64,000 nt of DNA. Source: a virus. The stretch covers positions 79,855-143,854 of the IMG/VR virus record IMGVR_UViG_3300042261_000588; one strand, given 5' to 3'. This document shows, piece after piece, positions 42,185 through 61,684 of the stretch; positions within the stretch are counted from its first letter, which is position 1; each line of letters starts with the position of its first letter. The position numbers and the translations under genes are program-made. The notes under the pieces were generated by a model. The model worked only from the letters and a program-made list of their open reading frames with translations, was not told the DNA's origin and ran no database searches.

Positions 42185-42355
42185 GAACAGCGGCGTGGAA
42201 AGCATAGCCCCTCGAAAGGTTATTAGAGACACGCTAGGTCAAGCAGGTCATGTGGCCGAAAGCTCCACACTGCCATAGTAGAGATGATGGCGAACGGTAG
42301 TAAGATGCTCGTACTCAGAGAGGTGGAGATAGCCGGGGTAGCGTCCGGCCTGTTC
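42185..42355 (+). ncRNA. tRNA-scaffold ncRNA family member A
   Basis: GAACAG/CTGTTC closing stem, GCGTG-GAAAG..AGA-CACGC, GCCGG-GGTAGCGT-CCGGC. Confidence 0.6.
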
Positions 42356-42678
42356 GATTCAGCTTGCAAGAGGTGAGCCGAGACCGTAGGCATACGGTAA
42401 TCATTTACAAAAACCCTGATGAGTTGATGGCCTTCGGCCTGATGAGTTGATGGGTGTAAATGTTTGGCTGAGACCTACCGAGGATAGACGATACGTGGTG
42501 TATAGAGCACGCCCGAAGGGAGGATCAGGTTCGAGTCCTGAACGTTGGAACAATTTCTTGCTGCAAGGCAACAGTGAAATCCCTCATAACTTTTCAATTT
42601 CGTACTTGCGAGTCAGGCCACGATTCAATGCAGTGATGTACGACTGCGATAGTGGATAAACCAGACCGCCCAATTTTT

Positions 42679-42860
42679 AGGAGCAAGCAGCACGGGAGGC
42701 AGACGTGCCGACGAATGCCGCAGTAGAGCAAAGTCGGGTGGACGAACATTGTCGAACCGGGAGCAGTAATGCAACCCGTGGATGTCCAAGGTAAAGCCCT
42801 TAGCGGGGTTGGAAGTAGGATGAACAGTCCGCTGATCGGGGTGGCGTCCGATCTGCTCCT
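42679..42860 (+). ncRNA. tRNA-scaffold ncRNA family member B
   Basis: AGGAGCA/TGCTCCT, GCACG..AGA-CGTGC, GATCGG-GGTGGCGT-CCGATC. Confidence 0.55.
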
Positions 42861-42868
42861 TTTTTTAT

Positions 42869-42946
42869 GTTGGCCGTAGCTCAATTTGGCAGAGCGTCTG
42901 ATTGTGGGTCAGAATGTTGCGAGTTCAAACCTCGTCGGTCAACCCA
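42869..42946 (+). tRNA. tRNA-His(GTG)
   Basis: G-1:C73, GTG anticodon, CCA. Confidence 0.88.
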
Positions 42947-42955
42947 TAAGGAAAG

Positions 42956-43027
42956 CATGGCACACTTCAGCGTGATGGCTACTTCTACTTCTATGAAAAA
43001 AGCCTTTGTGCAATCATCGGTGCCATG
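42956..43027 (+). ncRNA. Y-RNA-like RNA 1 (short, no tRNA module)
   Basis: CATGGCAC-ACTTCAG...TACTTC...GGTGCCATG. Confidence 0.6.
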
Positions 43028-43043
43028 TGATCCTTGCCATTCT

Positions 43044-43152
43044 GAAGGCACACCTCAGTTGAGGGATACTTCGTTTGTTCGATTCAAACCCTCGGCAGAT
43101 GCCGGGGATGCCCTGTTGGTGGGCGTTTCTCTCAGCGATTATTGGTGCCTTT
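43044..43152 (+). ncRNA. Y-RNA-like (YrlA-like) RNA 2 with permuted tRNA module
   Basis: T-arm, closed acceptor stem, D-arm order inside shared terminal stem. Confidence 0.65.
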
Positions 43153-43164
43153 GATTTCACTTTT

Positions 43165-43307
43165 TCAGGTCACACTTCAGGGTAGGGATACTTCATTCCA
43201 ACCGCTAATCGAGGTTCGATTCCTCGTCTCTCGACCATAACATCGGGAGATCGTCTAATGGCTAGGACAGCGGCACAAGACACCTTGCTCGCTTATTGGT
43301 GATCTGA
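43165..43307 (+). ncRNA. Y-RNA-like (YrlA-like) RNA 3 with permuted tRNA module
   Basis: CGAGG-TTCGATT-CCTCG, TCTCTCGA/TCGGGAGA, GTCT-AATGGCT-AGGAC. Confidence 0.7.
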
Positions 43308-43312
43308 TTTTC

Positions 43313-43389
43313 GGGCTCATAGCTCAGTTGGTTAGAGCACGGGACTCATAATCCCTTGGTCGCAGGTTCGAGTCTTGCTGAGCCCACCA
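43313..43389 (+). tRNA. tRNA-Ile2/Met(CAT)
   Basis: CAT anticodon, GGGCTCA acceptor suggests Ile2. Confidence 0.88.
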
Positions 43390-43395
43390 TCTTAT

Positions 43396-43471
43396 AGGCA
43401 TGTAACTCAGTTGGTAGAGTGCAACTCTGATACGGTTGATGTACCTGGTTCAATTCCAGGCATGCCTACCA
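43396..43471 (+). tRNA. tRNA-Ile(GAT)
   Basis: cloverleaf, CCA. Confidence 0.88.
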
Positions 43472-43531
43472 TGAATTCAAAAAGAAAGGACGGTGATTGC
43501 AATGAAATGCGATGGTAAACGAGTGTAAAGA

Positions 43532-43606
43532 GGATGCGTAGCTCAGAGGTAGAGCAGTTGGCTTTTAACCAACGGGTCGAGATTTCAAAATTCTCCGCAT
43601 CCACCA
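43532..43606 (+). tRNA. tRNA-Lys(TTT)
   Basis: cloverleaf, CCA. Confidence 0.88.
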
Positions 43607-43620
43607 AAATAGATTTTCTG

Positions 43621-43760
43621 TGAGGCACACTTCAGCGAAGAGTTACTTCAATGTTAATGACGTGGTTGTTGGTTCAACTCCAACCTCCGGAGTCGCAAGA
43701 TTCCGGAGTAGCTCAATGGTAGAGCACGAAAATCTCTCTTCGCGTTTTTTTGGTGCCTCA
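43621..43760 (+). ncRNA. Y-RNA-like (YrlA-like) RNA 4 with permuted tRNA module
   Basis: TGAGGCAC/GTGCCTCA, TACTTC, GTTGG-TTCAACT-CCAAC, CTCCGGAGTC-GCAA-GATTCCGGAG, GCTC-AATGGTA-GAGC. Confidence 0.7.
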
Positions 43761-43897
43761 CGGACCTATTTCATTCTATTCTACGACAGGTTTACCGGAA
43801 TTGCCTGTCGTAGTCTGCATACCCGGTTCAGCACCGGCTACCCGGAGGATGTGCCGCCAAGAAGCCAGTTTCCCGGAGTTCTGACAAACCGGGATTT

Positions 43898-43972
43898 GCC
43901 CCCGTCGTCTAGTGGCTAGGACGCTGGTTTTTCAAGCCGGAGAAGGCGGATCGATACCGCTCGGGGGTGCCA
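43898..43972 (+). tRNA. tRNA-Glu(TTC)
   Basis: cloverleaf, CCA. Confidence 0.88.
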
Positions 43973-43996
43973 ACTTCCAATGGAATGGTGTATAAT

Positions 43997-44073
43997 GTGC
44001 CTATAGCTCAATTGGACAGAGCACTTGACTACGGACGAGAAGGCGGCTGGTTCAAATCCAGTCAGGAGCACCA
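43997..44073 (+). tRNA. tRNA-Arg(ACG), degenerate stems
   Basis: D and T arms clear; acceptor and anticodon stems imperfect. Confidence 0.6.
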
Positions 44074-44212
44074 AGAAAGATTTTTTAATTTGGGGGGGTA
44101 AAGGGTTGGATGGATGCACGCCGCCCGAGCGGTCTGTCCAGTCTGCGTAAAGCAATCTGTCCGGTGCAGCGCCTCGTGGGCGTAGGATGGAAAAGTTGCT
44201 CCCTCCTTTTTT

Positions 44213-44287
44213 GGAGATGTGGCAGACCGGTAATGCGCCTGATTGTCTATCAGGTTTATGCGAGTTCAATTCTCGTCATCTTCGCCA
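44213..44287 (+). tRNA. tRNA-Asp(GTC)
   Basis: CCTGA-ttGTCta-TCAGG, CCA. Confidence 0.82.
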
Positions 44288-44394
44288 ACGCTTGTTCGGG
44301 ATCAGGAGAAGCAGAAACCGCCTCTGTTCGTTAGGAGGGTAATCCCCCGATGCCAACTTGGATGTGTTCCATGGCAAGCATCTATTTCAGTTAT

Positions 44395-44480
44395 GCCGAG
44401 TTGGCTCAGCGGCGACAGCAACGGCTTCGTAAGTCGTCATGGTAACTACATCGGGGGTTCGAGTCCCTCACTCGGCTCCA
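44395..44480 (+). tRNA. tRNA-Thr(CGT) with long variable arm
   Basis: GCC acceptor start, U73, CGT anticodon. Confidence 0.82.
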
Positions 44481-44612
44481 TGAAATATTTTTTCACATTT
44501 TACTGTGGGTCGAGTATAATATCTTGATCGGTATAGCAGCGAGCCAAAGTGGCTCCGATTAAGACGGTCATAGTTGGCCGTTGAATCGCTGAGGTAATTA
44601 GGAGAAGTTCAA

Positions 44613-45119
44613 ATGATTAGACGTGCAGTTGTGACGGTGTTGGCTGTTATGGGGCTGTGTCTTGCCGGATGCAAGATGTCGCCGAGTGAGATCAATGCGA
44701 TGTCAGAAGCCTCTGGCGTAGCGGCAACGGTGATCTGGATGTCCTATGACAATCCATCAGTCGAGCAGAAAACTGAAGTCGCCAATGTTCTTGGCGTCGT
44801 AACGGAGAACATCGGAATTGTCGGGACAAATTCGTATACTTCCGTGTTCATGCCGAAGGTTATGGCGTATGTTGTTGCCAGTCAGGATATTCCGGCCAAT
44901 GACAAGCCCATTGTCATCGCTGGGTCGCTGGCAGTTTTCGGAGGTATTGACCTGTTGTTTGCAAGTCATCCTGAATGGAAGGAAGACACGCAGAATGTCG
45001 GGTCGTATGTCAAGTCATTCATTACTGGCGTACAGCTCTCTCTGGCTTTGCCGGCAACGGACTCGAAGGTTATGAAGGCAACCGAGAATTACAAGGCACG
45101 CTCAGCACTCAAGAAGTAA
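44613..45119 (+). CDS. lipoprotein
   Basis: signal peptide + LAGC lipobox. Confidence 0.75.
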   Translation: MIRRAVVTVLAVMGLCLAGCKMSPSEINAMSEASGVAATVIWMSYDNPSVEQKTEVANVLGVVTENIGIVGTNSYTSVFMPKVMAYVVASQDIPANDKPIVIAGSLAVFGGIDLLFASHPEWKEDTQNVGSYVKSFITGVQLSLALPATDSKVMKATENYKARSALKK

Positions 45120-45184
45120 GATAAGTATCAGCGTGGTTCTTGAAGGGGCGTTTCGATGAAGAGTCGGACGCCTCTTGTATTTAT

Positions 45185-45271
45185 GCCAACGTGACCTGAA
45201 TTGGTAAAGGCCCTGATTTGTAATCAGGTAGTTCCGAAAGGATCGTGCAGGTTCGATGCCTGTCGTTGGCT
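45185..45271 (+). tRNA. tRNA-Thr(TGT) with long variable arm, no encoded CCA
   Basis: CCTGA-ttTGTaa-TCAGG; TCC-GAAA-GGA variable arm. Confidence 0.8.
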
Positions 45272-45509
45272 CGGGAAGCAAAGTTGGGGCACCTCTACGT
45301 GGTGCTGACTAGAAACAGCAGGAGTGCTGGCTAAGACCCCAATCGAAGGTTGATGATGGTAAGGAACCTCATAGCCTTTTATTCTTTGAAATAGGTGAAT
45401 GTCGAGACATCAATGAGGCAGAGTTCGATGCTTTGTTCAAGACAGGCTTGTGCTTTGCGGTTGTCATTATTCTGAATGGATGCTAATTTTGCAGGGAGGA
45501 ACAAGAAGT

Positions 45510-45585
45510 AGGCGTGTGGTCCAATTGGTCGGGCACCGGTCTCCAAAACCGGACTATGTGGGTTCGAGTCCCGCCACACCTGCCA
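45510..45585 (+). tRNA. tRNA-Trp(CCA)
   Basis: cloverleaf, CCA. Confidence 0.92.
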
Positions 45586-46033
45586 AAACCAGAGAGGTGG
45601 ATTCGACTTCCGCTCACCATGCCAATCTGATCCGCAAAAAAATCTGAAGAAAAATCTACAATTTTTGTTTGACTTATCCCGTTGATTTGGTGTAATATGG
45701 ACTGGAATGATGAGTCATGGAAGAGTTGTAAAATGATCAGAACTTCAAATCACTGGAAGTTGGTTGTCGGCTAGAGCGCTTTCAGCTTGCGGAAAACAAG
45801 TCAGGAGTCTATAGTTCCTGATGTTCAAAAGTCTCATAGAATAAAAATCTATGAAAAGGCAACTGAGTAGAAATTTTTGGATTTATAGGTCAGTGGCAGA
45901 GGGAAAATGCACGGGTATGCCCGGTCTCAGGGTTCGGTTAGTGGGCGAGCTGATCTCTGAGTGAAAGATACCAATCTTTCCTGACCTATTAATCTTGTTG
46001 TGAAAACATTGTCTTGCCGGAGTATAATGAGAC

Positions 46034-46372
46034 ATGAATACTAAAAAAGGCAACGGGATTGAAGAACTCTGGAAACAAACGAAGAAGAAAATTCGTATGG
46101 ATCAGGTTCACACAGAAATTGATCACAAGGTTCTTGCCGCTGGTGATCTCTGTCAGGTCGTCCTTTACAATGACGATCATCATACAAGCTCTCATGTGGT
46201 AAAGTCTTTGATTGCGATTTTTCAACATTCACAGGCAATAGCTGAGAAGATCATGCTCGATGCTCATAATTCTGGACGGTCGGTTGCCGAGGTTGAGGAT
46301 TATGAGAAGGCAGTTGAACATGCCAAGCAATTAGCTGAGGCTGGTTTGAAAGCAGAAGTAGAGTCGTTTTAA
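46034..46372 (+). CDS. clpS: ClpS N-degron adaptor
   Basis: VVLYNDDHHT..VV..L...IMLDAHNSG. Confidence 0.85.
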   Translation: MNTKKGNGIEELWKQTKKKIRMDQVHTEIDHKVLAAGDLCQVVLYNDDHHTSSHVVKSLIAIFQHSQAIAEKIMLDAHNSGRSVAEVEDYEKAVEHAKQLAEAGLKAEVESF

Positions 46373-46513
46373 GCAAAACTGTAACAAGCCAAAGATAAAG
46401 TGCGACAACGCTGATAACTGCGCAGGCAAACAAGAAAAGTAGGAGAAGTAATGGAAGCACACTAGTTGGCGAAGTTGTTATTGGACAATTAATCTCGAAT
46501 GAAGAGTAATTTT

Positions 46514-46589
46514 GGGGCTATAGCACAATTGGTAATGCGGCAGCTTTGCAAGCTGTTCGGTACGAGTTCAAGTCTCGTTAGCTCCACCA
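46514..46589 (+). tRNA. tRNA-Ala(TGC)
   Basis: GGGGCTA acceptor with G3:U70, CCA. Confidence 0.92.
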
Positions 46590-46629
46590 AAAATTCGGGA
46601 GTGTTGGACCTTGTTGCGTCCGACTACCC

Positions 46630-46911
46630 ATGAACACAACAACCGCCAGCGGGCGGAAAGGAGCGCCTATGCGCATGTCCTCACGAAAAGGCCAGACGAT
46701 GGTCGAGTACATCATCATTGTCGTCGTGATTGCCATCACCCTGATCTTGCTCTTCTCCAATTTGGGCAAGGCCATTGGCAAGAAGGTCACCGGCGCGACA
46801 GCCGCCATAGACCAAGAGGTCGGTGAGGCGGCGGCGGCGACGTATGACACCCTGAGCGCCAATCCGGTTCGGGATTTAAATGCAGACGGGACGATGGTTG
46901 GCACGCCCTAA
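46630..46911 (+). CDS. Flp/Tad type IV pilin-like protein
   Basis: RKG|QTMVEY followed by hydrophobic helix. Confidence 0.8.
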   Translation: MNTTTASGRKGAPMRMSSRKGQTMVEYIIIVVVIAITLILLFSNLGKAIGKKVTGATAAIDQEVGEAAAATYDTLSANPVRDLNADGTMVGTP

Positions 46912-47077
46912 GCGGGAACGGGCACCATGGCAAGGGTGGCGATCAGGGCTCGTGATGCGCGTCGCCTCCGGTGCAGTAGTGGGCATTACACAAATTTGTT
47001 AGGCTTACAGAGAAGATATGGCGCGTAGCCGCGCCGATGTTCACCGCCGACGATAATCATCAAAAAGGAGAAGAAGT

Positions 47078-47491
47078 ATGAAGATTGGGTTTATGTCTTT
47101 GTTTTTCGTGTTTGTTGCAGGATGTGCCACTGGACCCTACACGCCGATTCGGACATCGAGTTTGAAGGGAGAAAAAGTCATTTATTTCGAGCAGGTAGAT
47201 CGGGTCCCGAAAGACGTATTGATGCTCTTGTGTGAGAAAAAGGATGACGGCACTATGAGTGCGAGAGTCATGCCTTGGATTGAACTTATCCCGATGATCG
47301 AGAAGCTGTCGGATGTCGCCCCAGAGATCGTCACTTCGTATAGCCAAGAGAGAATGGAAAACGCCATGATCACAAGGAGAATGCTGTTTCGTGGATATGA
47401 TGGCACGAATGACTTGGTGGAGATCGAGAGGATCATAAAGACGATGGGTGGAAACATCGAGAATTGGTCTGCGAAGAAGGACAAGCCGTGA
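47078..47491 (+). CDS. lipoprotein
   Basis: VAGC lipobox, AGGAG RBS. Confidence 0.7.
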   Translation: MKIGFMSLFFVFVAGCATGPYTPIRTSSLKGEKVIYFEQVDRVPKDVLMLLCEKKDDGTMSARVMPWIELIPMIEKLSDVAPEIVTSYSQERMENAMITRRMLFRGYDGTNDLVEIERIIKTMGGNIENWSAKKDKP

Positions 47492-47646
47492 GAAAGCCTA
47501 GACTGACAGAGGACATCGCTCGTGGCATTATGGGTTGGATGAGCTTCGGCAGATATTGCTGCTGACTCTGATCGTCTTGCGGTAGATATGGAAGTTATCA
47601 CAGAAGTTTGAACGCAACCCAGTGTCGTGGAGTGAAAAGTAATTTT

Positions 47647-47722
47647 GGCGGGTTAGCTCAGTTGGTAGAGCAATGGAATCATAATCCGTGCGTCGGGGGT
47701 TCGAACCCCTCATCCGCCACCA
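47647..47722 (+). tRNA. tRNA-Met(CAT) elongator
   Basis: cloverleaf, CCA. Confidence 0.92.
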
Positions 47723-47735
47723 TGTTTAATTATGA

Positions 47736-47813
47736 CGGTAAGTAGTTCAGTCTGCTTAGAACGCTCGGTTTGGGTCCGAGAGGCCGTGGGTTGAAATCCC
47801 ACCTTACCGACCA
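47736..47813 (+). tRNA. tRNA-Pro(TGG)
   Basis: cloverleaf, CCA. Confidence 0.88.
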
Positions 47814-47982
47814 CCGGCTCCAGAGGAGGTTCGGCAGGGAAGGACAAACAAGAAACGGAAGGAGATTGGGACAACATGGAAGCAATGATCGTCGTTGGGC
47901 CGGAGAAGAGACAAATGAAAAGGGACGGAGCCATGGACCTTGCGCGCGGAACCTTACAAACACCAACACCAAGGAGAAGAAG

Positions 47983-48540
47983 ATGAGTGATCTGAAGTTC
48001 AACTGTCCGCACTGCCAACAGTCCCTCGAAGCGCCCGAAGAACTCCTTGGCCAGACGATCAACTGCCCGTCATGTAATGGCCGCATTCAATTGCCAAGTC
48101 CACAGCCCCGGCAACCGGCCAAGCCATTGCCACCACCACAGAAGAAGGTCGTTCTCAACAAACCGCAAACGGCACCACCGCCACAAACCGGCCGGACAAA
48201 GCCCTGCCCGTTCTGCGGCGAACAGATCCTAGAAGTAGCGAAGAAATGCAAACACTGCGGCAGCACTGCCAGCCAAAGCAAGAAGCGCCTTCTTCCTGCC
48301 TTCTTGCTGTGCTTTTTCTTTGGCGTACTCGGTATCCATGCCTTCTACGTCGGCAAGGTCAGTCAAGGCATCGTCTTTCTGGTCCTCTTTTTTGGGGCAT
48401 TTGCCCTCGACGCCGCAAACAGTATGTTGAGTGAGTTGCCGGTACTACTGCTCTTCGTCTGCTTGTTCGGAGACCTCTTCCGCCTCGCGGTGGGAGCGTA
48501 CAAAGACACTGATGGAAACAAGATAACTCAGTGGATTTGA
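47983..48540 (+). CDS. zinc-ribbon + TM2 domain membrane protein
   Basis: CPHC..CPSC, CPFC..CKHC, LLCFFFGVLGIHAFYVGK. Confidence 0.85.
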   Translation: MSDLKFNCPHCQQSLEAPEELLGQTINCPSCNGRIQLPSPQPRQPAKPLPPPQKKVVLNKPQTAPPPQTGRTKPCPFCGEQILEVAKKCKHCGSTASQSKKRLLPAFLLCFFFGVLGIHAFYVGKVSQGIVFLVLFFGAFALDAANSMLSELPVLLLFVCLFGDLFRLAVGAYKDTDGNKITQWI

Positions 48541-48610
48541 GTGCATCGAGGCCAGATCAGAGCCGAACCAGCGCCTCCATTTTACGTCGCTTAGCGCCGA
48601 AGGGCTTCAA

Positions 48611-48940
48611 ATGATTGAGATCAAGAACGTCAAGACCTATAAGGGTGATGGATTCAGAGTTGATCGGTCTTCTCCTTTAGGAAACCCGTTCTTGGTTGAT
48701 GCCAAGACATCCCGGACGATGGCTATAGCACAATACCGGGAATGGCTCTTGAAGCGTCTGGAGACATACAATCCCACTTCCAAAGCTTTCATGGTGCTTG
48801 TCGAGTATTATCGTCGAGAGGGAAATATGACTTTGATTTGTCATTGCGCTCCGCTTCAATGTCACGCAGAGATCATAAGAGAGTTTGTCTTAGAGGCAGT
48901 TGATGTAATGGGAGATAAAAAAGTTGAAATCACGAGTTGA
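48611..48940 (+). CDS. DUF4326-like protein
   Basis: VDRSSPLGNPF...CHCAPLQCHAE. Confidence 0.8.
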   Translation: MIEIKNVKTYKGDGFRVDRSSPLGNPFLVDAKTSRTMAIAQYREWLLKRLETYNPTSKAFMVLVEYYRREGNMTLICHCAPLQCHAEIIREFVLEAVDVMGDKKVEITS

Positions 48941-49274
48941 CAAATTTGCCGCCAAGATGCGTAAGAACAAGTCGTGGCCTGAGAAGAAGCTTTGGGCTAA
49001 GATCAAGAACGATCAGCTAGGTGTTCGGTTCTATGCTCAGAAGGTCATTCTGGGTCACTACATCGCAGATTTCTATTGCCCAAAGGCTAATTTGGTCATC
49101 GAGACTGATGGCAAGCAGCATCTTAAGAAGGCGGCTCAGGAGCACGACAGGGAGCGTGATGAGGCGATGGCTAAAATAGGGATCAAGACAGTGAGGTTCA
49201 CGGCGCAGGAGGTTGCCAACAATCTTCCGGCTGTTGTCGTCATGATACAGAAGATCGTTCAAGAAAGAATCTGA
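48924..49274 (+). CDS. DUF559/Vsr-like endonuclease
   Basis: EKKLW..Q..YIADFYC..IETDG..H..D..RD. Confidence 0.85.
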   Translation: MKSRVDKFAAKMRKNKSWPEKKLWAKIKNDQLGVRFYAQKVILGHYIADFYCPKANLVIETDGKQHLKKAAQEHDRERDEAMAKIGIKTVRFTAQEVANNLPAVVVMIQKIVQERI

Positions 49275-49283
49275 TTCATTCCT

Positions 49284-49309
49284 TATTTGGGCAGGATTTT
49301 GGTAATGTA
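49284..49309 (+). promoter_or_regulatory. TATT-N13-GGTAATGTA motif
   Basis: repeated motif in an intergenic gap. Confidence 0.65.
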
Positions 49310-49363
49310 TGGGTGTAAGGGCGATACAAAACACAAAGCTGACTGGCGGCTTGCCAGCCAAGG

Positions 49364-49597
49364 ATGATTGACATGAAGAAGAACGCAACCGTGGAAGCCG
49401 TACAGCCCGACTTGTTGGAGTGCCCGTTCTGCGGGCCAGTCGAGATCGTTCACCGGTGGGCTGGCAACGTCGAGATCAAGCACAAGCCTGCGTGCTTTCT
49501 GCACGCGATCACTACACTGCACGGAGCGGCGCACATCGCGGCGTGGAATCGACGATACTCCAACGCCCGGCTTGATCGACAGGAGGAAGTACGATGA
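49364..49597 (+). CDS. Lar-like zinc-ribbon small protein
   Basis: LECPFCG...IAAWNRR. Confidence 0.55.
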   Translation: MIDMKKNATVEAVQPDLLECPFCGPVEIVHRWAGNVEIKHKPACFLHAITTLHGAAHIAAWNRRYSNARLDRQEEVR

Positions 49598-49710
49598 GTG
49601 GATGCAAAGAACACCCGGATGGACAGCGTGGTTGTATGTATTGCGCAGAGGTTGGGTTACTTGAGCGAATTGCCGAGCACCCCCCTGTACGGTCGGAGCC
49701 GTTGTTGTCG
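49558..49710 (+). mobile_element. attC-like site (long)
   Basis: CCAAC...GTTG ends, imperfect inverted repeat with bulged bases. Confidence 0.5.
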
Positions 49711-50116
49711 AACGATCCCGTTCAACAGCCGGGGATCGGACCGCAAGGAGACCGTATGACTGAGACAAACACAACGCGGGCTGCCGGTAGTTCTGCACAG
49801 GCTTGTTGGCCGGATGAGCGTGCCGAGGAATTGAAGGTCTTGCAACAACTGCTGGCGACCATCTCAGGGTTGAATCACGGTAGCGGCTTCGTCGAATCGC
49901 TCCAATGGTGCATCGCGGCTGCAAAATGTCTGCAGCACAGCGACATCGCAGGGTTGAGGTCGAGTTTCATCGACCACCTATTGCGCGACTGCGTTGCGGA
50001 GCGTACGGCCAAACAGCCCGCATAGCTGCGGCTAAAAGAACCTGAAGGCGGACAAGGTTTTGAATGCGTTGAGCGACGAGTGCCTTGCTCAGAGGATGAA
50101 TGGAGTGTAGGTCAAA

Positions 50117-50386
50117 ATGAGTAATAACGTCAAGAGGGTTATCACAGTTGTCAAGGAATCCGACCACAATGGTCGATTTGCTCTGAATGAGTGTCTGGTG
50201 ACAGAAGGGAGCATCTCGCGGACGGCTTACTGGTCTGACGGGACTCTGAAGGTGGAGCAGATGCAGGACAAGCTGATTGCTGAGGGTGCTAATCCAGCCA
50301 CTGTTGAGGAGTTTCGACAAGTCGTCTATGACTATGGTTACGAGAATGGAATGGAAGTGGTTGAGGAGGCTGTGGCGTTGGGATGA
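50117..50386 (+). CDS. hypothetical protein
   Basis: ORF with GGAG RBS. Confidence 0.6.
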   Translation: MSNNVKRVITVVKESDHNGRFALNECLVTEGSISRTAYWSDGTLKVEQMQDKLIAEGANPATVEEFRQVVYDYGYENGMEVVEEAVALG

Positions 50387-50392
50387 CATAAA

Positions 50393-50468
50393 GCACCAAT
50401 AGCTCAGTTGGTAGAGCGGGACCTTCCCAAGGTTCAGGTCGTCGGTTCAAACCCGATTTGGTGCTCCA
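50393..50468 (+). tRNA. tRNA-Gly(CCC)
   Basis: cloverleaf, U73, CCA. Confidence 0.88.
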
Positions 50469-50495
50469 ATAGTTGATGAAAAGAGGAGACAAGCG

Positions 50496-50729
50496 GTGAA
50501 AGTGATTGGATCAACGTGGTTCTCTGAGATGGGCAGCGCAACTCCGATTGGAATCGTTCTAGTCGAGTTTGACAAGGCAGAGCAGCAAGATTTTGGTGCG
50601 TTTGCCCTGGCGGCATATATTGGAACGTCTGCAGGTCTCTCAAAGGAGATGGACGAGGAAAGAATCGTGAAGAATGGTGCGAGGTTTCCTGTTTCTGCTG
50701 CCAAGATGATGATCGGGCGAGGAGTATGA
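50496..50729 (+). CDS. hypothetical protein
   Basis: GAGGAG RBS. Confidence 0.55.
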   Translation: MKVIGSTWFSEMGSATPIGIVLVEFDKAEQQDFGAFALAAYIGTSAGLSKEMDEERIVKNGARFPVSAAKMMIGRGV

Positions 50730-50977
50730 AAAATCGTGGAGTTCGCAGGGATCATGAAAAACGGATTAAGGCCAGAGTCAAGAAGGTCTTAATTTCCAAG
50801 AAGAATTTTTGCAAGTCTGCTTGTGAACCTTCCGAAGCGCCTACGAAGAAGGTGATTGGTCGGCTGGCGGCTGTTCACGGCGCTGCTTGTTCTTGCCAAA
50901 TGTGCGGAAATCCTCGAAGATATGCCAAGGGAAAAGGAAAGATCACGATGCAGGAGCGGAGGTTGAAAGCGATTTGA
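50726..50977 (+). CDS. small basic protein with CSCxMCGNPR motif
   Basis: motif recurrent in phage small proteins. Confidence 0.6.
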   Translation: MKNRGVRRDHEKRIKARVKKVLISKKNFCKSACEPSEAPTKKVIGRLAAVHGAACSCQMCGNPRRYAKGKGKITMQERRLKAI

Positions 50978-51075
50978 CTTACGACATCTACAACCCTGAC
51001 ACCATGTGATTCTGTTTCGGAATGTCGTGAATGACGCCGTTGTAGTCGGTTCAGAAAGGGTATAATGATTTAAGT

Positions 51076-51149
51076 GCGGGTGTAACTCAATGGTAGAGTG
51101 TCAGCCTTCCAAGCTGATTACGAGGGTTCGATTCCCTTCACCCGCTCCA
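51076..51149 (+). tRNA. tRNA-Gly(TCC)
   Basis: cloverleaf, CCA. Confidence 0.93.
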
Positions 51150-51165
51150 ATGATTAATGTGATTT

Positions 51166-51242
51166 GGCCCTATGGCGCAATTGGACAGCGCAGCGGTTTC
51201 CTAAACCGACGGTTGGGGGTTCGATTCCCTCTAGGGCCGCCA
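51166..51242 (+). tRNA. tRNA-Arg(CCT)
   Basis: cloverleaf, CCA. Confidence 0.92.
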
Positions 51243-51252
51243 ACGAAGATAT

Positions 51253-51329
51253 ACCCCCGTAGCTCAGATGTATAGAGCGGAAAATTTCTAATTTTCGGGT
51301 CGCAGGTTAGAGTCCTGCCGGGGGTACCA
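51253..51329 (+). tRNA. tRNA-Arg(TCT)
   Basis: cloverleaf, CCA. Confidence 0.88.
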
Positions 51330-51340
51330 AGATGTTTGAT

Positions 51341-51415
51341 GAGTCTATGGTGTAATGGATAGCACCTTACCCTACGAAGGTAATAGTCTGGGTTCAACTC
51401 CCGGTAGACTCACCA
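51341..51415 (+). tRNA. tRNA-Arg(ACG)
   Basis: cloverleaf, CCA. Confidence 0.9.
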
Positions 51416-51428
51416 GTTTGTAGGAGAT

Positions 51429-51502
51429 TGGCTCGTGGTGTAATTGGCAGCACGTCACGCTCCAGTGAAGGATTGCAGGTTCGATTCCTGCCGAGTCAAC
51501 CA
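51429..51502 (+). tRNA. tRNA-like gene with aberrant anticodon arm (identity undetermined)
   Basis: good acceptor, D and T arms, CCA; TCAC-GCTCCA-GTGA 6-nt loop. Confidence 0.65.
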
Positions 51503-51540
51503 AGTGTTTTCGATATTCAGATCAATGATGTTTTGGAGAT

Positions 51541-51617
51541 TGTCCTCTAGCTCAATTGGACAGAGCACCTGACTTTGACTCAGGTGGTTGGTGGTTCGAA
51601 TCCACCGGGGACAGCCA
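51541..51617 (+). tRNA. tRNA-Gln(TTG)
   Basis: cloverleaf, CCA. Confidence 0.92.
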
Positions 51618-54512: not shown

Positions 54513-54575
54513 CCGACAGTGGGAAATGACATCCAAAACCCGCGCCGGGCGGGAAGACCCGGCAAGGAGAATGAT

Positions 54576-54932
54576 ATGCGCATAATATGGTGCAGCCGAC
54601 ACAAGATTTCGGCCAAACAACTGATCGACCTGTGCCACACTGCGCAGATCGGCGATGACGTTGCAGTCGAAAACCGCAACGTCACATGGGCGGCGACGGC
54701 TGATGCGGCTGCGGACGCGGTGCACAACAGCGCACAATGGGAGGAATTGTATGCCGCAGCAGGGCGTGGCGGCATCATAGCGGGAGTTTTCCCGCCGGTG
54801 GCTCTGGAGACAAGGCGCCCCTTCGGGCAAACGGGTATCCGCCTCGCCTCGTCGGTATCACGGCAGGCGCCGGAACTCAGGGTCGGAGACGGGCCGATCC
54901 CGTTCGTGCACGTCCGCTGGGCGTTGCTGTGA
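54576..54932 (+). CDS. hypothetical protein
   Basis: AAGGAG RBS, MRIIWCSRH. Confidence 0.6.
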   Translation: MRIIWCSRHKISAKQLIDLCHTAQIGDDVAVENRNVTWAATADAAADAVHNSAQWEELYAAAGRGGIIAGVFPPVALETRRPFGQTGIRLASSVSRQAPELRVGDGPIPFVHVRWALL

Positions 54933-56756: not shown

Positions 56757-56769
56757 GAGAAGGAGCTTC

Positions 56770-56988
56770 GTGATGAACATCTACGAGAAGATTGAAAGGA
56801 TGAGTCAGTCAGAACTACGAGTGGCTGCTGCAAAGATGGCGGAGCTACTGGCTGGCGATGTATCTCAAATGGATCGATGGGCATCTAAATCCGACGTTGA
56901 AGGTTGCTCCACGAGTCAGGGAGCAATCATGAGGTCGAGGGCGATGGTCATTCGGAGAGGGATGTCGTCGGTCGGAATCTGGATTTAA
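56770..56988 (+). CDS. hypothetical protein
   Basis: AAGGAG RBS; partial copy near 52910. Confidence 0.55.
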   Translation: MMNIYEKIERMSQSELRVAAAKMAELLAGDVSQMDRWASKSDVEGCSTSQGAIMRSRAMVIRRGMSSVGIWI

Positions 56989-56991
56989 TCT

Positions 56992-57176
56992 TGGGTGGCG
57001 ATGTGGAAAGCGGGCTTTCTTGGTAGGCGACCCCTAAAAGGTAGCTGGAAACTCGGATGGCCTAGAGACACATGAAACTGAATTGATGGGAGGTTAAGCC
57101 GTGCGTCGGTCTTACCATCAACGGAGGCTCATCAACGCACTGGATGTAGCCAGCAGAGTAGCGATCTGCCCACCCA
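56992..57176 (+). ncRNA. tRNA-scaffold ncRNA family member C
   Basis: TGGGTGG/CCACCCA, ATGTG-GAAAG..AGA-CACAT, GCAGA-GTAGCGA-TCTGC. Confidence 0.6.
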
Positions 57177-57452
57177 TTTAAACAAGGACGAGATAGAAGG
57201 TTAAGCCGTGCGTCGGTCTTACCATTAACGGAGGCTCATCGATAAAGCTCAGTTTCGCGAGGAACGAGCGTAAAACTGGAACGCCTTGTTGGGCGTTCCG
57301 TAAACGAAGAGGAAGACTATGCAATACCCAGAAACCGAACCGATTTGCTCTTGCGATGAATGTGTTTACAAATTCCCAAAGCAAGAGTGGTGCCATAGAC
57401 TTTCAGTAGAGTTGCCGAAGGGTAGGCGTTGTAGCCTTTCTATTCGCAAGAC

Positions 57453-57512
57453 GCCCAACGCCCCGCATCAGGCGCAAGCGGTAGCGAGTCGCCCTGAATG
57501 CGGTTGTTCGCA
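57453..57512 (+). mobile_element. attC-like site
   Basis: GCCCAAC...GTTCGC, CCGCATCAGGCG/CGCCCTGAATGCGG imperfect IR. Confidence 0.6.
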
Positions 57513-58017
57513 GGAGGATCAACGATGAAGTGCCACAAGTGCCAGAAGGAAATGACCATGACGCCGGTGTGCAGCGAGTGCGGCATCATCCCGATTGCAG
57601 ATGCATCGTTTCGGCAACGAGATGACGAAATCAAACGGCTACGATACGCGCTTGAGAAGATAGCCAACTGGACGGGCGGGACTGAGTGTCCAATGGAGAT
57701 TGCACGCAAGGCTCTCTCTGCCAACGCCCGGCTTGACCGGCAGGAGGAAGCGCGATGAAGACGACAGCCAAACAGCGGAAGCATCGCCGCGCTTCCTCCT
57801 GTACTGGTCGAAGCTGTTGTTCGGTTTTTCGTGCGACGTTCAAGGCGACGTTGGCGCATTGCAACCGATGTGGCAGCACGTTCAACAACATCGACGGGTG
57901 CCCGGTGTGCGGCACGGACAGGTATCTGACGCATGACTGCAATTAATAAACCAAACAACGCACTGGATGTAGCCAGCAGAGTAGCGATCTTCCCACCCAT
58001 TTAAACAAGGACGAGAT

Positions 58018-59014: not shown

Positions 59015-59023
59015 AATCTTCCT

Positions 59024-59049
59024 TATTCTGACCTATTTTCGGTAATGTA
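59024..59049 (+). promoter_or_regulatory. TATT-N13-GGTAATGTA motif
   Basis: repeated motif. Confidence 0.7.
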
Positions 59050-59085
59050 TGGGTGTGAGTTAATGTTCAAGAAAGGCGGGATGCT

Positions 59086-59856
59086 ATGAAAAAGTTGGTT
59101 AGTAAGGTTGTCATTCTGGCTGTCATCTCCTTGGCTATGTTTGCCTCGGCGCAAACACCATGGGCAGGACATGCGAATTTTGGCGGCAAGGCCAGCAAGA
59201 CTGGAAAACCCACTGGCACTAAGAAATATAAGGTGGACTCTGGTGTTCAGAATAAAAAAACGATGGAAGACACATTTGGCACAATAAAGCCTCTGAGTTC
59301 ATCTGGCTCTGCCAAAGCCGATGCAAATACAGTGATTTGGGACGGTCAAAAAGTAACAATCCGAAGTGGTCAGGTCTTTAATGGATTTGTTTTAGAGCTT
59401 TCCTATGGGACGATAGGTGCGTGTTCAAACACATATCTGATTAAAGAAGGATCAACCGGTAAGATCGTCTTTTCAGAAAGTGAGAAGGACGCTTACTGCG
59501 AAACATTCAGGAAGATCGGCGAAGAGATGGAACGGGCTAAAACGAAAAGAGCTAAATCATTTACAAAGAGTATTCCGTGTTCTGTAGATGGGGTACAATT
59601 TGTGTTTGAATGGACTTCAAAGCCGATTGCGTCTTCAAATAAGAATGCCTTGGAGATTCCAAAAACAATCGATTCCTGTCGTGTTGTTTTTACGAAAACC
59701 GATCTTGTTACGAAGAATGTTTTAACAGGTATTTTTAACAAGCCTGAAATGTTAGGCGAGTTTCTCAAAATATTGACCTCGAAGGATCGGGACATCGTGG
59801 TGGAGTTCAATAAGAGAAATGGGACTCCATCTGATGCTGAGAAAAACTCCAAGTAA
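59086..59856 (+). CDS. exported protein (signal peptide)
   Basis: MKKLVSK + hydrophobic + ASA. Confidence 0.7.
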   Translation: MKKLVSKVVILAVISLAMFASAQTPWAGHANFGGKASKTGKPTGTKKYKVDSGVQNKKTMEDTFGTIKPLSSSGSAKADANTVIWDGQKVTIRSGQVFNGFVLELSYGTIGACSNTYLIKEGSTGKIVFSESEKDAYCETFRKIGEEMERAKTKRAKSFTKSIPCSVDGVQFVFEWTSKPIASSNKNALEIPKTIDSCRVVFTKTDLVTKNVLTGIFNKPEMLGEFLKILTSKDRDIVVEFNKRNGTPSDAEKNSK

Positions 59857-59867
59857 GATTCTTCTCG

Positions 59868-59894
59868 TATTCCGGTTGATTTTTTGGTAATGTA
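59868..59894 (+). promoter_or_regulatory. TATT-N14-GGTAATGTA motif
   Basis: repeated motif. Confidence 0.6.
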
Positions 59895-60076
59895 GTGATA
59901 TGGAAGAGACCAAAACTATCGAAGAACCACGCAAGGCAGTGGACTCAACCAATGCCGCCTATGGCGAAGTTCTGGCTGCCAGCCGAAAGGCTACAACTGC
60001 CGCTTACTGCGCTCATGCAGATGTTAAGGCTGTTTACACCGCTCTCGCCGACGCCATTTCGGGATAAGGAGACTCT

Positions 60077-60778
60077 ATGAACAGGTGGTGGATCGCTGAT
60101 ACCCATTTTAATCACGCAAACATAGCGAAGTATACAAATCGTCCTCAATTGAAGCCGGGCGACTTGGATGCGTCTGGGGAATGGGTATCTCCAGATGTCG
60201 CTTTTCAGCGTGCTGAGAAGATGAATGCCGATCTTATTCGTGATTGCAATCAACGGGTTAAGATGGGTGATACGGTGGTCTGCGTGGGTGACTTCTCCTG
60301 CCGTGGTGGAGAGAAGGGAGTTCGTGGTCTGCATGTCGCTCCTGCAATAATTCAGGCTCAGTTGAATGGCAATTGGGTAATTATCGATGGCAATCACGAC
60401 AAACAAAATGGCGTCAAGTCTGTTGCCAACTTCATGTCCTGTGAGATCGCCAAGTATCGAGTTGGTGTCCAGCATCGTCCGCTTCAAGATGAGGAAGCCT
60501 ATCTGAAGTGGAAGGCTCTTTCTCCCGCTGAGAAGGCGGCTAATCCGTGGCGAGATCGCATGTCCGATCAGTGGCGGGAGCATGAGTTTATTCACGCTTC
60601 CTACTGCCGGAGAATGTTTGACTTCATGATTTGTGGACACGTTCACAATGCATGGAAGGTCAAGAAGGTCGCTGGTATCTGGCATGTGAATGTCGGTGTG
60701 GATGTGAATCGCTATATGCCTATCAATGATCAAGAGGTTGTCCAGATTTACGAGAAGGCCGTGAGAGGTGTAGAATGA
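60077..60778 (+). CDS. calcineurin-like metallophosphoesterase
   Basis: ADTHF.H, VGDF, GNHD, CGHVH, NVGVD. Confidence 0.9.
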   Translation: MNRWWIADTHFNHANIAKYTNRPQLKPGDLDASGEWVSPDVAFQRAEKMNADLIRDCNQRVKMGDTVVCVGDFSCRGGEKGVRGLHVAPAIIQAQLNGNWVIIDGNHDKQNGVKSVANFMSCEIAKYRVGVQHRPLQDEEAYLKWKALSPAEKAANPWRDRMSDQWREHEFIHASYCRRMFDFMICGHVHNAWKVKKVAGIWHVNVGVDVNRYMPINDQEVVQIYEKAVRGVE

Positions 60779-61215
60779 CTAAGCAAGAACAAAAGATGCT
60801 TCAAGAGGTTGCTCTGAGGAACGCCATCGCAAGATATCGGGCAAAGTCCAAGACGGCATCGCTTCCAGAAGTGGGTATTTTCTGGATTGATCTCAAAGGG
60901 ACGATGTTCTCCGAGAGCGTTTCAATCAGGGACGCAGAGGATTTCGGAGACTTCAAAATCTTCGGTGGGGATCACTATAACTTGTGGTACAAGGCTGTGC
61001 GTGAAAACCCGCAGTGGGACGGTCTCGAATATGAGGATGTTCCTCGTGGTCGTGTTATCTGGCACAATATCCCGAAGAAGCCTGAGTTCGTCGTTTATCT
61101 GCCCAAGGAGATACTTCGGTATAAGGGCAAGGTGATTACTCAGTTCAATCTTCCAATTGGTCATGTTCGTTTCGATACGACCGACGAGCACTATCGGATG
61201 GTTGCTGGACAATAA
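60775..61215 (+). CDS. hypothetical protein
   Basis: VGIFW..H...YEDVPRGRV. Confidence 0.65.
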   Translation: MTKQEQKMLQEVALRNAIARYRAKSKTASLPEVGIFWIDLKGTMFSESVSIRDAEDFGDFKIFGGDHYNLWYKAVRENPQWDGLEYEDVPRGRVIWHNIPKKPEFVVYLPKEILRYKGKVITQFNLPIGHVRFDTTDEHYRMVAGQ

Positions 61216-61217
61216 CG

Positions 61218-61445
61218 ATGTGTGACGAAAAAGTCAAGCTGCGATTGAAGATGCCAGCAGACCTGAGCCGGACTGGAAAGGTCTATACAAGAGATGTGCC
61301 GATTGACGCTTGCATTGCTCCACTCGTTGACGCTCTGAACAAGGCTGGCATATTGACTCGACAATCGTGTTGTGGTCATGGTAAAGTCAATGGATTCATA
61401 GAGTTACAGGACGGAAGAACACTTATCATTCAAGGGAGTTTGTAA
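61218..61445 (+). CDS. small protein with IDACIAPLV..T..SCCGH motif
   Basis: ORF, recurrent phage motif. Confidence 0.6.
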   Translation: MCDEKVKLRLKMPADLSRTGKVYTRDVPIDACIAPLVDALNKAGILTRQSCCGHGKVNGFIELQDGRTLIIQGSL

Positions 61446-61448
61446 CAT

Positions 61449-61684
61449 GACATGGCGGGAGAAAGTAGACTCAGGTAACTGCTTCTAGAGCAGAAATACG
61501 ACCAGAGAAACGCCGGAGGCTGGCAGTGTTGGTCGGACCAGCACGCGCCATCAGGGCTTTGGACATCAGAAGTCAGAGCCCTGATGGCGGGCCGGTCCGA
61601 CACGGGTTTAAAAACCTAAAAGGCATTGTCAAGTGTCGGCGAATAATACTGGGAAAAGGGTTGAAATCTCCCGTCATGTCGCCA
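61449..61684 (+). ncRNA. tRNA-scaffold ncRNA candidate ending in GCCA
   Basis: GACATGGCGGGAGA/TCTCCCGTCATGTC, long internal hairpins, T run after. Confidence 0.6.

What the first reader, a model, noticed from the sequence alone, without database searches (positions are those of the whole stretch)
42185..61684. Dispersed family of tRNA-scaffold ncRNAs with large variable inserts
Seen: elements at 42185-42355, 42679-42860, 56992-57176 and 61449-61684 (possibly also 41798-42008) share one frame despite different sequence. The frame is a 6-7 bp closing stem, a D-like hairpin with GAAAG...AGA, a ~90-190 nt unrelated structured insert in place of the anticodon arm, and a T-like hairpin (GTRGCG loop in three) abutting the closing stem. 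Paired positions covary (GCGTG/CACGC, ATGTG/CACAT, GCACG/CGTGC). Inference: tRNA-elbow mimics used as stable, processed carriers of RNA payloads.
Basis: partly seen in the sequence, partly recalled or inferred. Interest (0 to 1): 0.75.

Follow-up and report, generated by a model that had tools for sequence, protein, structure and literature searches.

The report
Phage tRNA-shaped RNAs with swappable inserts
Three of the flagged elements are genes of a widespread, uncatalogued family of phage small RNAs: a nearly invariant tRNA-shaped frame encloses an insert that differs from phage to phage, and its job is still unknown.

Summary
The window is the last 64 kb of a 144-kb freshwater phage contig with 22 tRNA genes. 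Three of the flagged elements (42183-42357, 42680-42859, 56992-57176, + strand) are real members of one RNA family. Covariance models built only from other phages hit exactly these three places in the window (E 1.5e-9, 1.4e-4, 2.4e-5).

The frame has four fixed parts:
- a closing stem of at least 7 bp, then a 2-nt linker (CG);
- a 5-bp hairpin with loop GAAAGCAGA;
- a variable insert;
- a 5-bp hairpin with loop (A/G)GUAGCG(C/A/U) that abuts the closing stem.

I collected 196 unique members from phages and prophages. In them 16 of 17 pairs show compensatory changes. Inserts are almost all unrelated (179 clusters among 216 frame-insert combinations) and recombine freely with frames.

No Rfam 15 family matches. 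The elements at 61449-61684 and 41798-42008 are not members, although 41800-42008 has the same topology.

The closest known kind is the tRNA-like stable RNAs of phage T5 (RNA1, RNA2). They have the same topology but true T-loops and no model match. Processing by tRNA enzymes, elbow mimicry and any cargo function remain inferred.

Earlier reports of this scan describe the same or related families on other DNA.

The parts
42183..42357 (+). E1, a family member with two extra domains. P1 42183-42190 pairs with 42350-42357. Linker CG 42191-42192. P2 42193-42197 pairs with 42230-42234. The P2 loop, 42198-42229, is GAAAG + nested hairpin + AGAGA. Variable insert 42235-42330. Conserved A at 42331. P3 42332-42336 pairs with 42345-42349; loop GGUAGCGU 42337-42344.
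   Evidence: R1 51.2 bits, E 2e-9. R2 55.9 bits, E 1.5e-9, filters off. The MFE fold gives the frame. Coordinates.
42680..42859 (+). E2, a family member. P1 is 42680-42685 plus G42687 (A42686 bulged) and pairs with 42853-42859. Linker CA. P2 42690-42694 pairs with 42704-42708, loop GGAGGCAGA. Insert 42709-42834. P3 42835-42839 pairs with 42848-42852, loop GGUGGCGU. A T7 run follows, then tRNA-His starts 10 nt downstream.
   Evidence: R1 29.5 bits, E 3e-4. R2 32.1 bits, E 1.4e-4. Fold. Terminator-like scan. tRNA-His at 42870-42946.
56992..57176 (+). E3, a family member 5.4 kb downstream of the tRNA array. P1 56992-56998 pairs with 57170-57176. Linker CG. P2 57001-57005 pairs with 57069-57073; its loop is GAAAG + 52-nt nested domain + UAGAGA. 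Insert 57074-57152. P3 57153-57157 pairs with 57165-57169, loop GUAGCGA.
   Evidence: R2 35.7 bits, E 2.4e-5. R1 21.3 bits, E 0.02. Fold.
41800..42008 (+). Sibling-type element, not a member. It lies between tRNA-Glu and tRNA-Lys. The 7-bp closing stem is 41800-41806 with 42002-42008. The 3' hairpin 41984-42001 (loop GAGAAGCA) abuts the closing stem.
   Evidence: Fold z -4.35, 0 of 200 shuffles. No R1 or R2 hit at E<=10. Its loop resembles that of a neighbouring element in locus L003 (GAUCAGCA).
61449..61684 (+). Not part of the family. A long, nearly perfect hairpin with a 14-bp closing stem, followed by T8.
   Evidence: MFE -119 kcal/mol, z -10.3. No R1 or R2 hit. No GTRGCG-loop hairpin.
41634..51617 (+). 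Array of 22 tRNA genes on the same strand, in which E1 and E2 are embedded.
   Evidence: ARAGORN; Rfam RF00005.

Best explanation
E1, E2 and E3 are genes for small non-coding RNAs of a large phage-borne family.

Shown:
- The RNA folds into a four-way junction with the connectivity of a tRNA. The parts are a closing stem P1 (7 bp or more), a 2-nt linker, hairpin P2 (5 bp, loop GAAAGCAGA), a variable region in place of the anticodon arm, one conserved A, and hairpin P3 (5 bp, 8-nt loop (A/G)GUAGCG(C/A/U)). P3 runs straight into the 3' strand of P1.
- The frame is nearly invariant across phages of several bacterial phyla.
- The insert is hypervariable and is exchanged between frames by recombination.

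Inferred:
- The RNA is transcribed on the strand of the tRNA genes.
- It is released as a discrete molecule by the host's tRNA- and RNA-processing nucleases. In tRNA arrays, RNase P cutting at the 5' end of the next tRNA and 3' trimming of the previous one would leave ends within a few nucleotides of P1. RNase P may also cut at P1 itself.
- The sealed P1-P3 coaxial stack and a loop-loop core make it nuclease-resistant.
- The two invariant loops are the recognition surface for a conserved partner, either a host protein or a tertiary contact.
- The insert is a displayed module that each phage can swap.

What the modules do is unknown.
For: Membership:
- Models from other phages hit only E1-E3 in the window.

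Structure:
- 96.6-99.1% of cells are paired, and 16 of 17 (A4) or 16 of 18 (A3) pairs have compensatory changes. Slid controls give 27-42%.
- P3 stems covary when the search is anchored on P2. P1 and P2 covary when it is anchored on P3.

RNA on this strand:
- A G-U closing pair occurs in 68 of 72 P3 hairpins.
- All 13 elements within 200 nt of a tRNA are co-oriented with it.

Spread:
- There are 196 unique members, 52-254 nt long.
- Full-length model hits occur in 13 bacterial genome loci, including alpha-, beta- and gammaproteobacteria, Gemmataceae and Verrucomicrobiia; whether they lie in prophages was not checked.
- The cultured Ochrobactrum phage POI1126 carries one between tRNA-Met and tRNA-Gln, 4 nt from the latter.

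tRNA-like geometry:
- P1 is never shorter than 7 bp.
- The linker is 2 nt in 85 of 98 members (CG in 75).
- The P3 stem is 5 bp with no linker to P1.
- Linker nucleotide 2 is A rather than G preferentially when the third P2 pair is A-U. This hints at a 9-12-23-type base triple.

Modularity:
- 179 insert clusters among 216 combinations. The closing stem GCTGCGG occurs with 13 different inserts.
- In two pairs of loci the upstream flanks are 93% identical while the inserts are unrelated.

Precedent:
- T5 RNA1 and RNA2, annotated as tRNA-like stable RNAs, fold to the same topology inside a tRNA cluster.
Against: - No expression or end-mapping data: no RNA run holds the sequence.
- The conserved loops are unlike D- and T-loops, so recognition by RNase P or other tRNA enzymes is not implied by sequence.
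- No discriminator or CCA is encoded.
- P1 is often 9-10 bp rather than 7.
- About 90% of members are not near a detected tRNA gene, so they must have their own promoter and 3' end. I could not define either.
- No conserved protein neighbour was found that could be the partner.
- Inserts show no shared motif beyond a weak UAAGCC enrichment.
- Inserts show no excess antisense match to nearby phage DNA. A cargo function therefore has no positive evidence.
Confidence: 0.5

Rival explanations
1. The frame is the functional unit. It would act as a decoy, sponge or docking platform for a conserved host factor or for tRNA elbows. The insert would be only a tolerated, fast-evolving expansion with no function of its own.
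For: - The frame is conserved at the nucleotide level across phyla, while the inserts share nothing.
- A 62-nt copy with almost no insert exists at L063 7436-7498.
- The insert length range is very wide, 9 to about 190 nt.
Against: - Neutral drift does not explain unrelated inserts between 93%-identical flanks.
- It also does not explain the re-use of one insert type with five different closing stems.
- Some inserts are themselves conserved modules. L084 and L111 carry a permuted tRNA-like domain. The 23-nt core in E3 is also found in the tRNA array of phage Pokken.
Confidence: 0.25
2. The elements are cis-acting punctuation. They would be processing, stabilising or termination signals of phage transcripts, not trans-acting RNAs.
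For: - E2 and about 10% of members are followed by a T-run.
- In Brucella phage Tb a decayed copy lies just upstream of an annotated terminator.
- Many members lie at module boundaries near terminase or integrase genes.
Against: - 90% have no T-run.
- A simple processing signal needs neither two invariant loops nor a structured insert of 40-190 nt.
- Tandem copies occur in one array (L003, L079, this window).
Confidence: 0.12
3. The elements act at the DNA level, as recombination or cassette-boundary sites that explain the insert exchange. The apparent structure would be a by-product of inverted repeats.
For: - Inserts are exchanged precisely between conserved 30-nt flanks.
- Other first-stage notes report attC-like cassettes in the same genome (not tested).
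Against: - Three nested helices are kept by compensatory changes.
- G-U pairs would be A-C mismatches on the other strand.
- Orientation is strictly shared with neighbouring tRNAs.
- No recombinase is consistently nearby: integrase in about 6 of 60 loci.
Confidence: 0.05
4. The elements are decayed tRNA genes, that is, pseudogenes with insertions.
For: - Cloverleaf-like connectivity.
- E1 and E2 lie in a tRNA array.
Against: - Non-tRNA loops are invariant in about 200 unrelated phages.
- Compensatory changes keep all the stems.
- Neither RF00005 nor ARAGORN gives any signal.
Confidence: 0.03

Closest known systems
Phage T5 RNA1 and RNA2 (NC_005859 30501-30644 and 32959-33083; annotated 'tRNA-like stable RNA with unknown functions')
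   Same: - They are encoded among phage tRNA genes on the same strand.
- The predicted fold has the same connectivity: a 7-8 bp closing stem, a 2-nt linker (CG in RNA2), a 5' hairpin, a large insert where the anticodon arm would be, and a 5-bp 3' hairpin that abuts the closing stem.
- Their function is also unknown.
   Different: - The T5 RNAs keep a canonical T-loop (GGUUCRAnnCC), while this family has AGUAGCGM.
- R2 scores RNA2 at only 6.3 bits, E 1.6, and R1 finds nothing in T5.
- This family is mostly single-copy in temperate phages without tRNA arrays.
Phage T4 species 1 and 2 RNAs (rnaC, rnaD; NC_000866 70908-71171)
   Same: - They are small stable RNAs at the end of the T4 tRNA cluster.
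- rnaC has a true T arm near its 3' end and contains GAGUAGCGU twice. That is the motif of this family's P3 loop.
   Different: - No covariance-model match; only local 10-nt hits at E above 1.
- The predicted fold does not show the P1/P2/P3 frame.
- The shared short motif may be chance.
Bacterial and phage Y RNAs of the YrlA type (Rfam RF02553; Chen et al. 2014, PMC4201824)
   Same: - A modular design with a constant module closed by the 5' and 3' ends, plus a second module that is often a tRNA look-alike.
- Two members (L084, L111) carry a permuted tRNA-like domain as their insert.
- YrlA-like elements lie in the same array of this window (43635-43746; 33.6 bits, below the cut-off).
   Different: - E1-E3 get no RF02553 signal.
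- The putative Ro60-binding motif GNCGAAN0-1G is not conserved in them.
- Members are not linked to a Ro60 gene.
- In YrlA the tRNA part is the module, not the frame.
tRNA (Rfam RF00005)
   Same: - Four-way junction connectivity.
- A closing stem of at least 7 bp and a 2-nt linker.
- A 5-bp 3' hairpin stacked on the closing stem.
- Co-orientation and close spacing with tRNA genes where these are present.
   Different: - No anticodon arm.
- No D-loop or T-loop consensus.
- No CCA.
- No hit with ARAGORN or RF00005.

Membership tests
tRNA (RF00005) | Acceptor-like stem of 7 bp formed by the 5' and 3' ends | tested here: met
   P1 is at least 7 bp in all 196 unique members; the mode is 9 bp. E1 has 8 bp, E2 7 bp with a bulge, E3 7 bp.
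tRNA (RF00005) | D-loop and T-loop consensus (A14, G18G19, A21; U54 U55 C56 R57 A58) | tested here: not met
   The loops are GAAAGCAGA and (A/G)GUAGCG(C/A/U). Neither matches.
tRNA (RF00005) | Anticodon arm (5-bp stem, 7-nt loop) | tested here: not met
   It is replaced by an unconserved region of 9 to about 190 nt.
tRNA (RF00005) | Detected by ARAGORN or by the Rfam tRNA model | tested here: not met
   No call at E1-E3. No RF00005 match at E<=5. No match on the compact members at E<=1.
T5 RNA1/RNA2-type tRNA-like stable RNAs | Closing stem, 5' hairpin, insert, and a 3' hairpin abutting the closing stem, inside a phage tRNA cluster | tested here: met
   The folds of T5 RNA1 and RNA2 have the same topology as E1-E3. 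E1 and E2 lie inside the array.
T5 RNA1/RNA2-type tRNA-like stable RNAs | Sequence and structure homology (canonical T arm, model match) | tested here: not met
   R2 gives 6.3 bits, E 1.6, on RNA2. R1 finds nothing in the T5 genome. The P3 loop is not a T-loop.
T5 RNA1/RNA2-type tRNA-like stable RNAs | Accumulates as a discrete stable RNA in infected cells | not testable with these tools
   No RNA run holds the window sequence.
YrlA / Y RNA (RF02553) | Match to RF02553, the 5' GNCGAAN0-1G motif, and linkage to a Ro60 gene | tested here: not met
   No RF02553 hit on E1-E3. The motif is not enriched in the inserts. No conserved neighbour was found.
Intrinsic terminator | GC-rich hairpin followed directly by a U-run | tested here: not met
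   At least 5 T within the 9 nt after P1 in only 20 of 196 members. E2 alone among E1-E3 has a T-run.
Any Rfam 15 family | cmscan match | tested here: not met
   Window 41000-62500 at E<=5. Five loci with compact members at E<=1. L084 and L111 at E<=1.

The most novel reading that the evidence does not exclude
Phages use this invariant tRNA-shaped frame as a natural display scaffold. The frame would guarantee folding, excision and stability, in the same way as the engineered tRNA scaffold used to express recombinant RNAs. Hundreds of different functional RNA modules (aptamers, decoys, tRNA-like domains) would be plugged into it and traded between phages by recombination within the conserved 30-nt arms. 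That would amount to a cassette system for small RNAs, comparable to what integrons are for genes.
Probability: 0.3. Interest if true: 0.8.

Novelty: new variant of a known kind. Interest (0 to 1): 0.62.

Why it matters
- If these RNAs are expressed, they are one of the more widespread phage non-coding RNA families still missing from RNA catalogues. They occur in hundreds of phage and prophage genomes across several bacterial phyla, including a cultured Ochrobactrum phage that could be tested at once.
- An almost frozen frame combined with a freely exchanged interior is unusual for bacterial small RNAs. It points to a specificity module under strong diversifying pressure or to a general carrier for RNA modules.
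- The family gives a comparative handle on the T4 and T5 'stable RNAs', whose function is, as far as I know, still unknown.
- The frame itself could also serve as a compact natural scaffold for RNA expression.

Tried and rejected
- Known families: Rfam at the gathering threshold and at relaxed E-values found only tRNAs, a sub-threshold YrlA hit and an HDV-like hit elsewhere.
- Literature: full-text searches for the conserved strings and for descriptions of such RNAs found nothing relevant. The supplement of the IMG/VR structured-RNA survey (PMC10690425) is not held, so I cannot say whether the family is among its 8,495 unnamed candidates.
- Close relatives: there is no megablast match of the array to cultured phages.
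- Protein partner: blastp clustering of 1,894 neighbouring ORFs gave at most 6 of 68 loci sharing a family. A PHROG tally showed only terminase and integrase recurring.
- Antisense targets: there is no match of 13 nt or more between the E1-E3 inserts and their own genome. In 103 loci there is no excess over shuffled inserts.
- Insert origin: the E1 and E2 inserts match nothing in 50,697 phage records.
- Shared insert motif: only a weak UAAGCC enrichment was seen.
- Expression: no RNA holder was listed for the sequence.
- Bacterial scan: most of the 80 listed bacterial hits to the 19-mer are probably chance matches in GC-rich genomes. Only 13 carry the full element.
- Corrected assumption: I first took the 'terminator_1' annotated in Brucella phage Tb for P3. 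It is a separate hairpin about 40 nt downstream.
- Other ideas: readings as a T-loop, an interdigitated T-loop platform, SRP or 5S rRNA were considered from memory. No test was available, so none is claimed.

Full report
**Setting**

The window is bases 79855-143854 of a 143,854-nt IMG/VR virus contig, estimated 67% complete. The DNA is held in freshwater and lake metagenome runs. ARAGORN and Rfam find 22 tRNA genes on the + strand between 41634 and 51617. The flagged elements lie in or near this array.

**Observation**

The frame consists of:
- a closing stem;
- a 5' hairpin whose loop starts with GRARG and ends with AGA;
- a structured middle;
- a 3' hairpin with a GTRGCG loop that abuts the closing stem.

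A scan of the whole contig, both strands, finds only these three hairpins with that loop.

The fourth element, 61449-61684, folds into one long hairpin (z -10.3) and lacks the 3' motif. The fifth, 41798-42008, has the same topology (z -4.35) but other loop sequences and a 6-nt linker.

**Relatives**

A first pattern scan of IMG/VR used only the loop and hairpin strings. It recovered compact versions of 97-131 nt in unrelated viral contigs. Their consensus is:
- P1 (7-11 bp), then linker CG;
- P2 GCGUG-GAAAGCAGA-CACGC;
- a variable region, then a conserved A;
- P3 GCCGG-loop-CCGGC, then P1'.

Model R1 was built from 11 such outside sequences. It hits E1 (51 bits, E 2e-9), E2 (E 3e-4) and E3 (E 0.02), and nothing else in the window.

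Three further scans were each anchored on one hairpin only, so the other parts were unconstrained.
- With the anchor on P2, P3 turned out to be a 5-bp stem that covaries freely. Examples are GCCGG, GCAGG, GCUGG, GCCUC, GUCGG, AUCCG and GCUAG. The 8-nt loop is AGUAGCGC or AGUAGCGA. The GGUAGCGU loop of E1 and E2 is a minority form.
- With the anchor on P3, the linker is CG in 75 of 98 members. P2 is mostly GCGUG/CACGC, and the loop is GAAAGCAGA in 51 members, with a few close variants.

Model R2 was built from a MAFFT alignment of 43 compact, mutually dissimilar members. Run with filters off, it finds exactly three places in the window:

| Element | Bits | E-value |
|---|---|---|
| E1 | 55.9 | 1.5e-9 |
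| E3 | 35.7 | 2.4e-5 |
| E2 | 32.1 | 1.4e-4 |
| next best hit | 12.1 | 2.1 |

**Structure support**

- On the MAFFT alignment, 96.6% of cells form standard pairs and 16 of 17 pairs have changes on both sides. Sliding the partners by 1-3 columns gives 33-40% paired, and none of 500 shuffles reaches the observed values.
- On the 73-sequence model alignment the figures are 99.1% paired and 16 of 18 pairs.
- G-U pairs fix the strand; the P3 closing pair is G-U in 68 of 72 sequences.
- Every element within 200 nt of a tRNA gene has the orientation of that tRNA. That is 13 of 136 elements, against about 4 expected from random placement.
- P1 is never shorter than 7 bp in the 196 unique members. Lengths run from 52 to 254 nt, with a median of 142.
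- The second linker nucleotide is A rather than G mostly when the third P2 pair is A-U instead of G-C. This is the pattern expected of a base triple like 9-12-23 of tRNA. I treat it only as a hint, because the sequences are related.

**Modularity**

- The inserts are essentially all different. 216 frame-insert combinations give 179 insert clusters, of which 168 are singletons.
- Thirteen elements with the identical closing stem GCTGCGG carry thirteen unrelated inserts.
- One insert cluster occurs with five different closing stems.
- In two pairs of loci the 300 nt upstream are 93% identical and the frame is 83-100% identical, yet the inserts are unrelated.
- The P2 loop also accepts nested hairpins between GAAAG and (C)AGA. 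E1, E3, L070, L073 and L095 show this.
- A few inserts are recognisable modules. L084 and L111 carry a T arm, an acceptor 3' strand with CCA, a loop and the acceptor 5' strand. This is a permuted tRNA-like domain that weakly resembles permuted tmRNA.
- The E3 insert contains a 27-nt segment that recurs about 100 nt downstream in the window. Its 23-nt core is identical to a stretch in the tRNA array of Stenotrophomonas phage Pokken.

**Context**

- Members occur in viral contigs of about 4-270 kb, several with terminal repeats or classed as proviruses.
- Full-length matches also occur in genome contigs of Brucella, Sneathiella, Reyranella, Lichenihabitans, Variovorax, Gammaproteobacteria, Gemmataceae and Verrucomicrobiia. 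I did not check whether these lie in prophages.
- In cultured phages, Ochrobactrum phage POI1126 has a full copy between tRNA-Met and tRNA-Gln. The Brucella phages of the Tb group keep a decayed copy without P3.
- No protein family is consistently adjacent.
- Only 10% of members are followed by a T-run.

**Comparison with known RNAs**

- Nothing in Rfam 15 matches.
- The T5 record annotates RNA1 and RNA2 in its tRNA cluster as 'tRNA-like stable RNA with unknown functions'. Their folds have the same connectivity, including a 2-nt linker and a 3' hairpin that abuts the closing stem. That hairpin, however, is a true T arm, and the models do not match.
- T4 rnaC and rnaD lie at the end of the T4 tRNA cluster. 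rnaC contains GAGUAGCGU twice, but neither RNA matches the model.
- The kind of element is therefore old: tRNA-shaped stable RNAs of phage tRNA clusters, of unknown function. This family, its non-tRNA loops, its spread outside tRNA arrays and the scale of insert exchange appear undescribed in what I could search.
- Earlier reports of this scan describe the same or sister families on other DNA. I used them only as leads to the T5 and T4 records, which I then checked myself.

**Mechanism**

Shown:
- a conserved, strand-specific, tRNA-connected fold;
- an invariant frame;
- exchangeable inserts.

Inferred:
- excision by tRNA-processing nucleases;
- stability conferred by the sealed P1-P3 stack;
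- recognition of the two invariant loops by a conserved partner;
- display of the insert as the variable, functional part.

The main rival is that the frame alone is functional and the insert is only tolerated. I could not test expression, processing or binding.

Noticed in passing
window 42955-43310 and 43620-43770: Y-RNA-like elements sit among the tRNAs. They have closing stems GGCACACUUCAG...UUGGUGCC around a T arm, a loop-closed acceptor stem and a D arm. RF02553 (YrlA) scores 33.6 bits, below the 69-bit cut-off, at 43635-43746. Another first-stage finding (e1-5789338) covers them.
   Followed up: partly
window 45273-45343: A sub-threshold match to an HDV-like ribozyme (RF02682; 29.4 bits against a cut-off of 44; E 0.007 in a 2.5-kb search). 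It starts at the base right after tRNA-Thr (45185-45272). The position is that of a 3'-trailer-cleaving ribozyme.
   Followed up: partly
window 57092-57118 and 57199-57225: A 27-nt segment of the E3 insert is repeated about 100 nt downstream, outside the element. Its 23-nt core (AAGCCGUGCGUCGGUCUUACCAU) is identical to an unannotated stretch in the tRNA array of Stenotrophomonas phage Pokken (MN062186 19075-19097).
   Followed up: partly
window 42416-42455 and 42518-42540: Between E1 and E2 lie a tandem repeat of CUGAUGAGUUGAUGG, which contains the hammerhead-like CUGAUGA box, and a perfect T-arm-like hairpin (UCAGGUUCGAGUCCUGA) without a detectable tRNA around it. The 320-nt gap as a whole is not unusually stable (z 0.2).
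   Followed up: partly
window 61449-61684: A 236-nt, almost perfect long hairpin (z -10.3) followed by T8, between two + strand ORFs. It is unrelated to the family and I did not identify it.
   Followed up: partly
window 43997-44073 and 51429-51502: ARAGORN reports two tRNA-like genes with irregular anticodon loops (tRNA-???). The first scores 28.8 bits with RF00005, just under the cut-off.
   Followed up: no
window 35479-36966: A C-5 cytosine DNA methylase ORF carries Hint and intein-splicing domain hits, so it is probably intein-interrupted. A class-V aminotransferase (NifS-like; 39203-40381) lies about 1.2 kb upstream of the first tRNA gene (tRNA-Glu, 41634).
   Followed up: no
L003 7700-8300 (minus strand); L084 331-467; L076 12485-12589: Tandem neighbours of family members have the same P1-linker-P2...P3-P1' topology but other loop sets. 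P2 loops are GAGAGA, GAUGGA or GAAGGAA; P3 loops are GCAAA, UAUCGAGC, UAUCAAGC or GAUCAGCA. This suggests several sister families. Window 41800-42008 resembles the GAnnAGCA type.
   Followed up: partly
L411 209-347 (T4 rnaC, minus strand): T4 species 1 RNA contains GAGUAGCGU twice. This is the motif of the family's invariant P3 loop. It could be a shared recognition motif or chance.
   Followed up: partly
window 52000-58000: GC content rises to 55-63% here, against about 45% in the rest of the window. The large ORFs in this stretch (53247-54512, 55599-56756) have no Pfam match. E3 sits at the end of the block, which may be acquired DNA.
   Followed up: no
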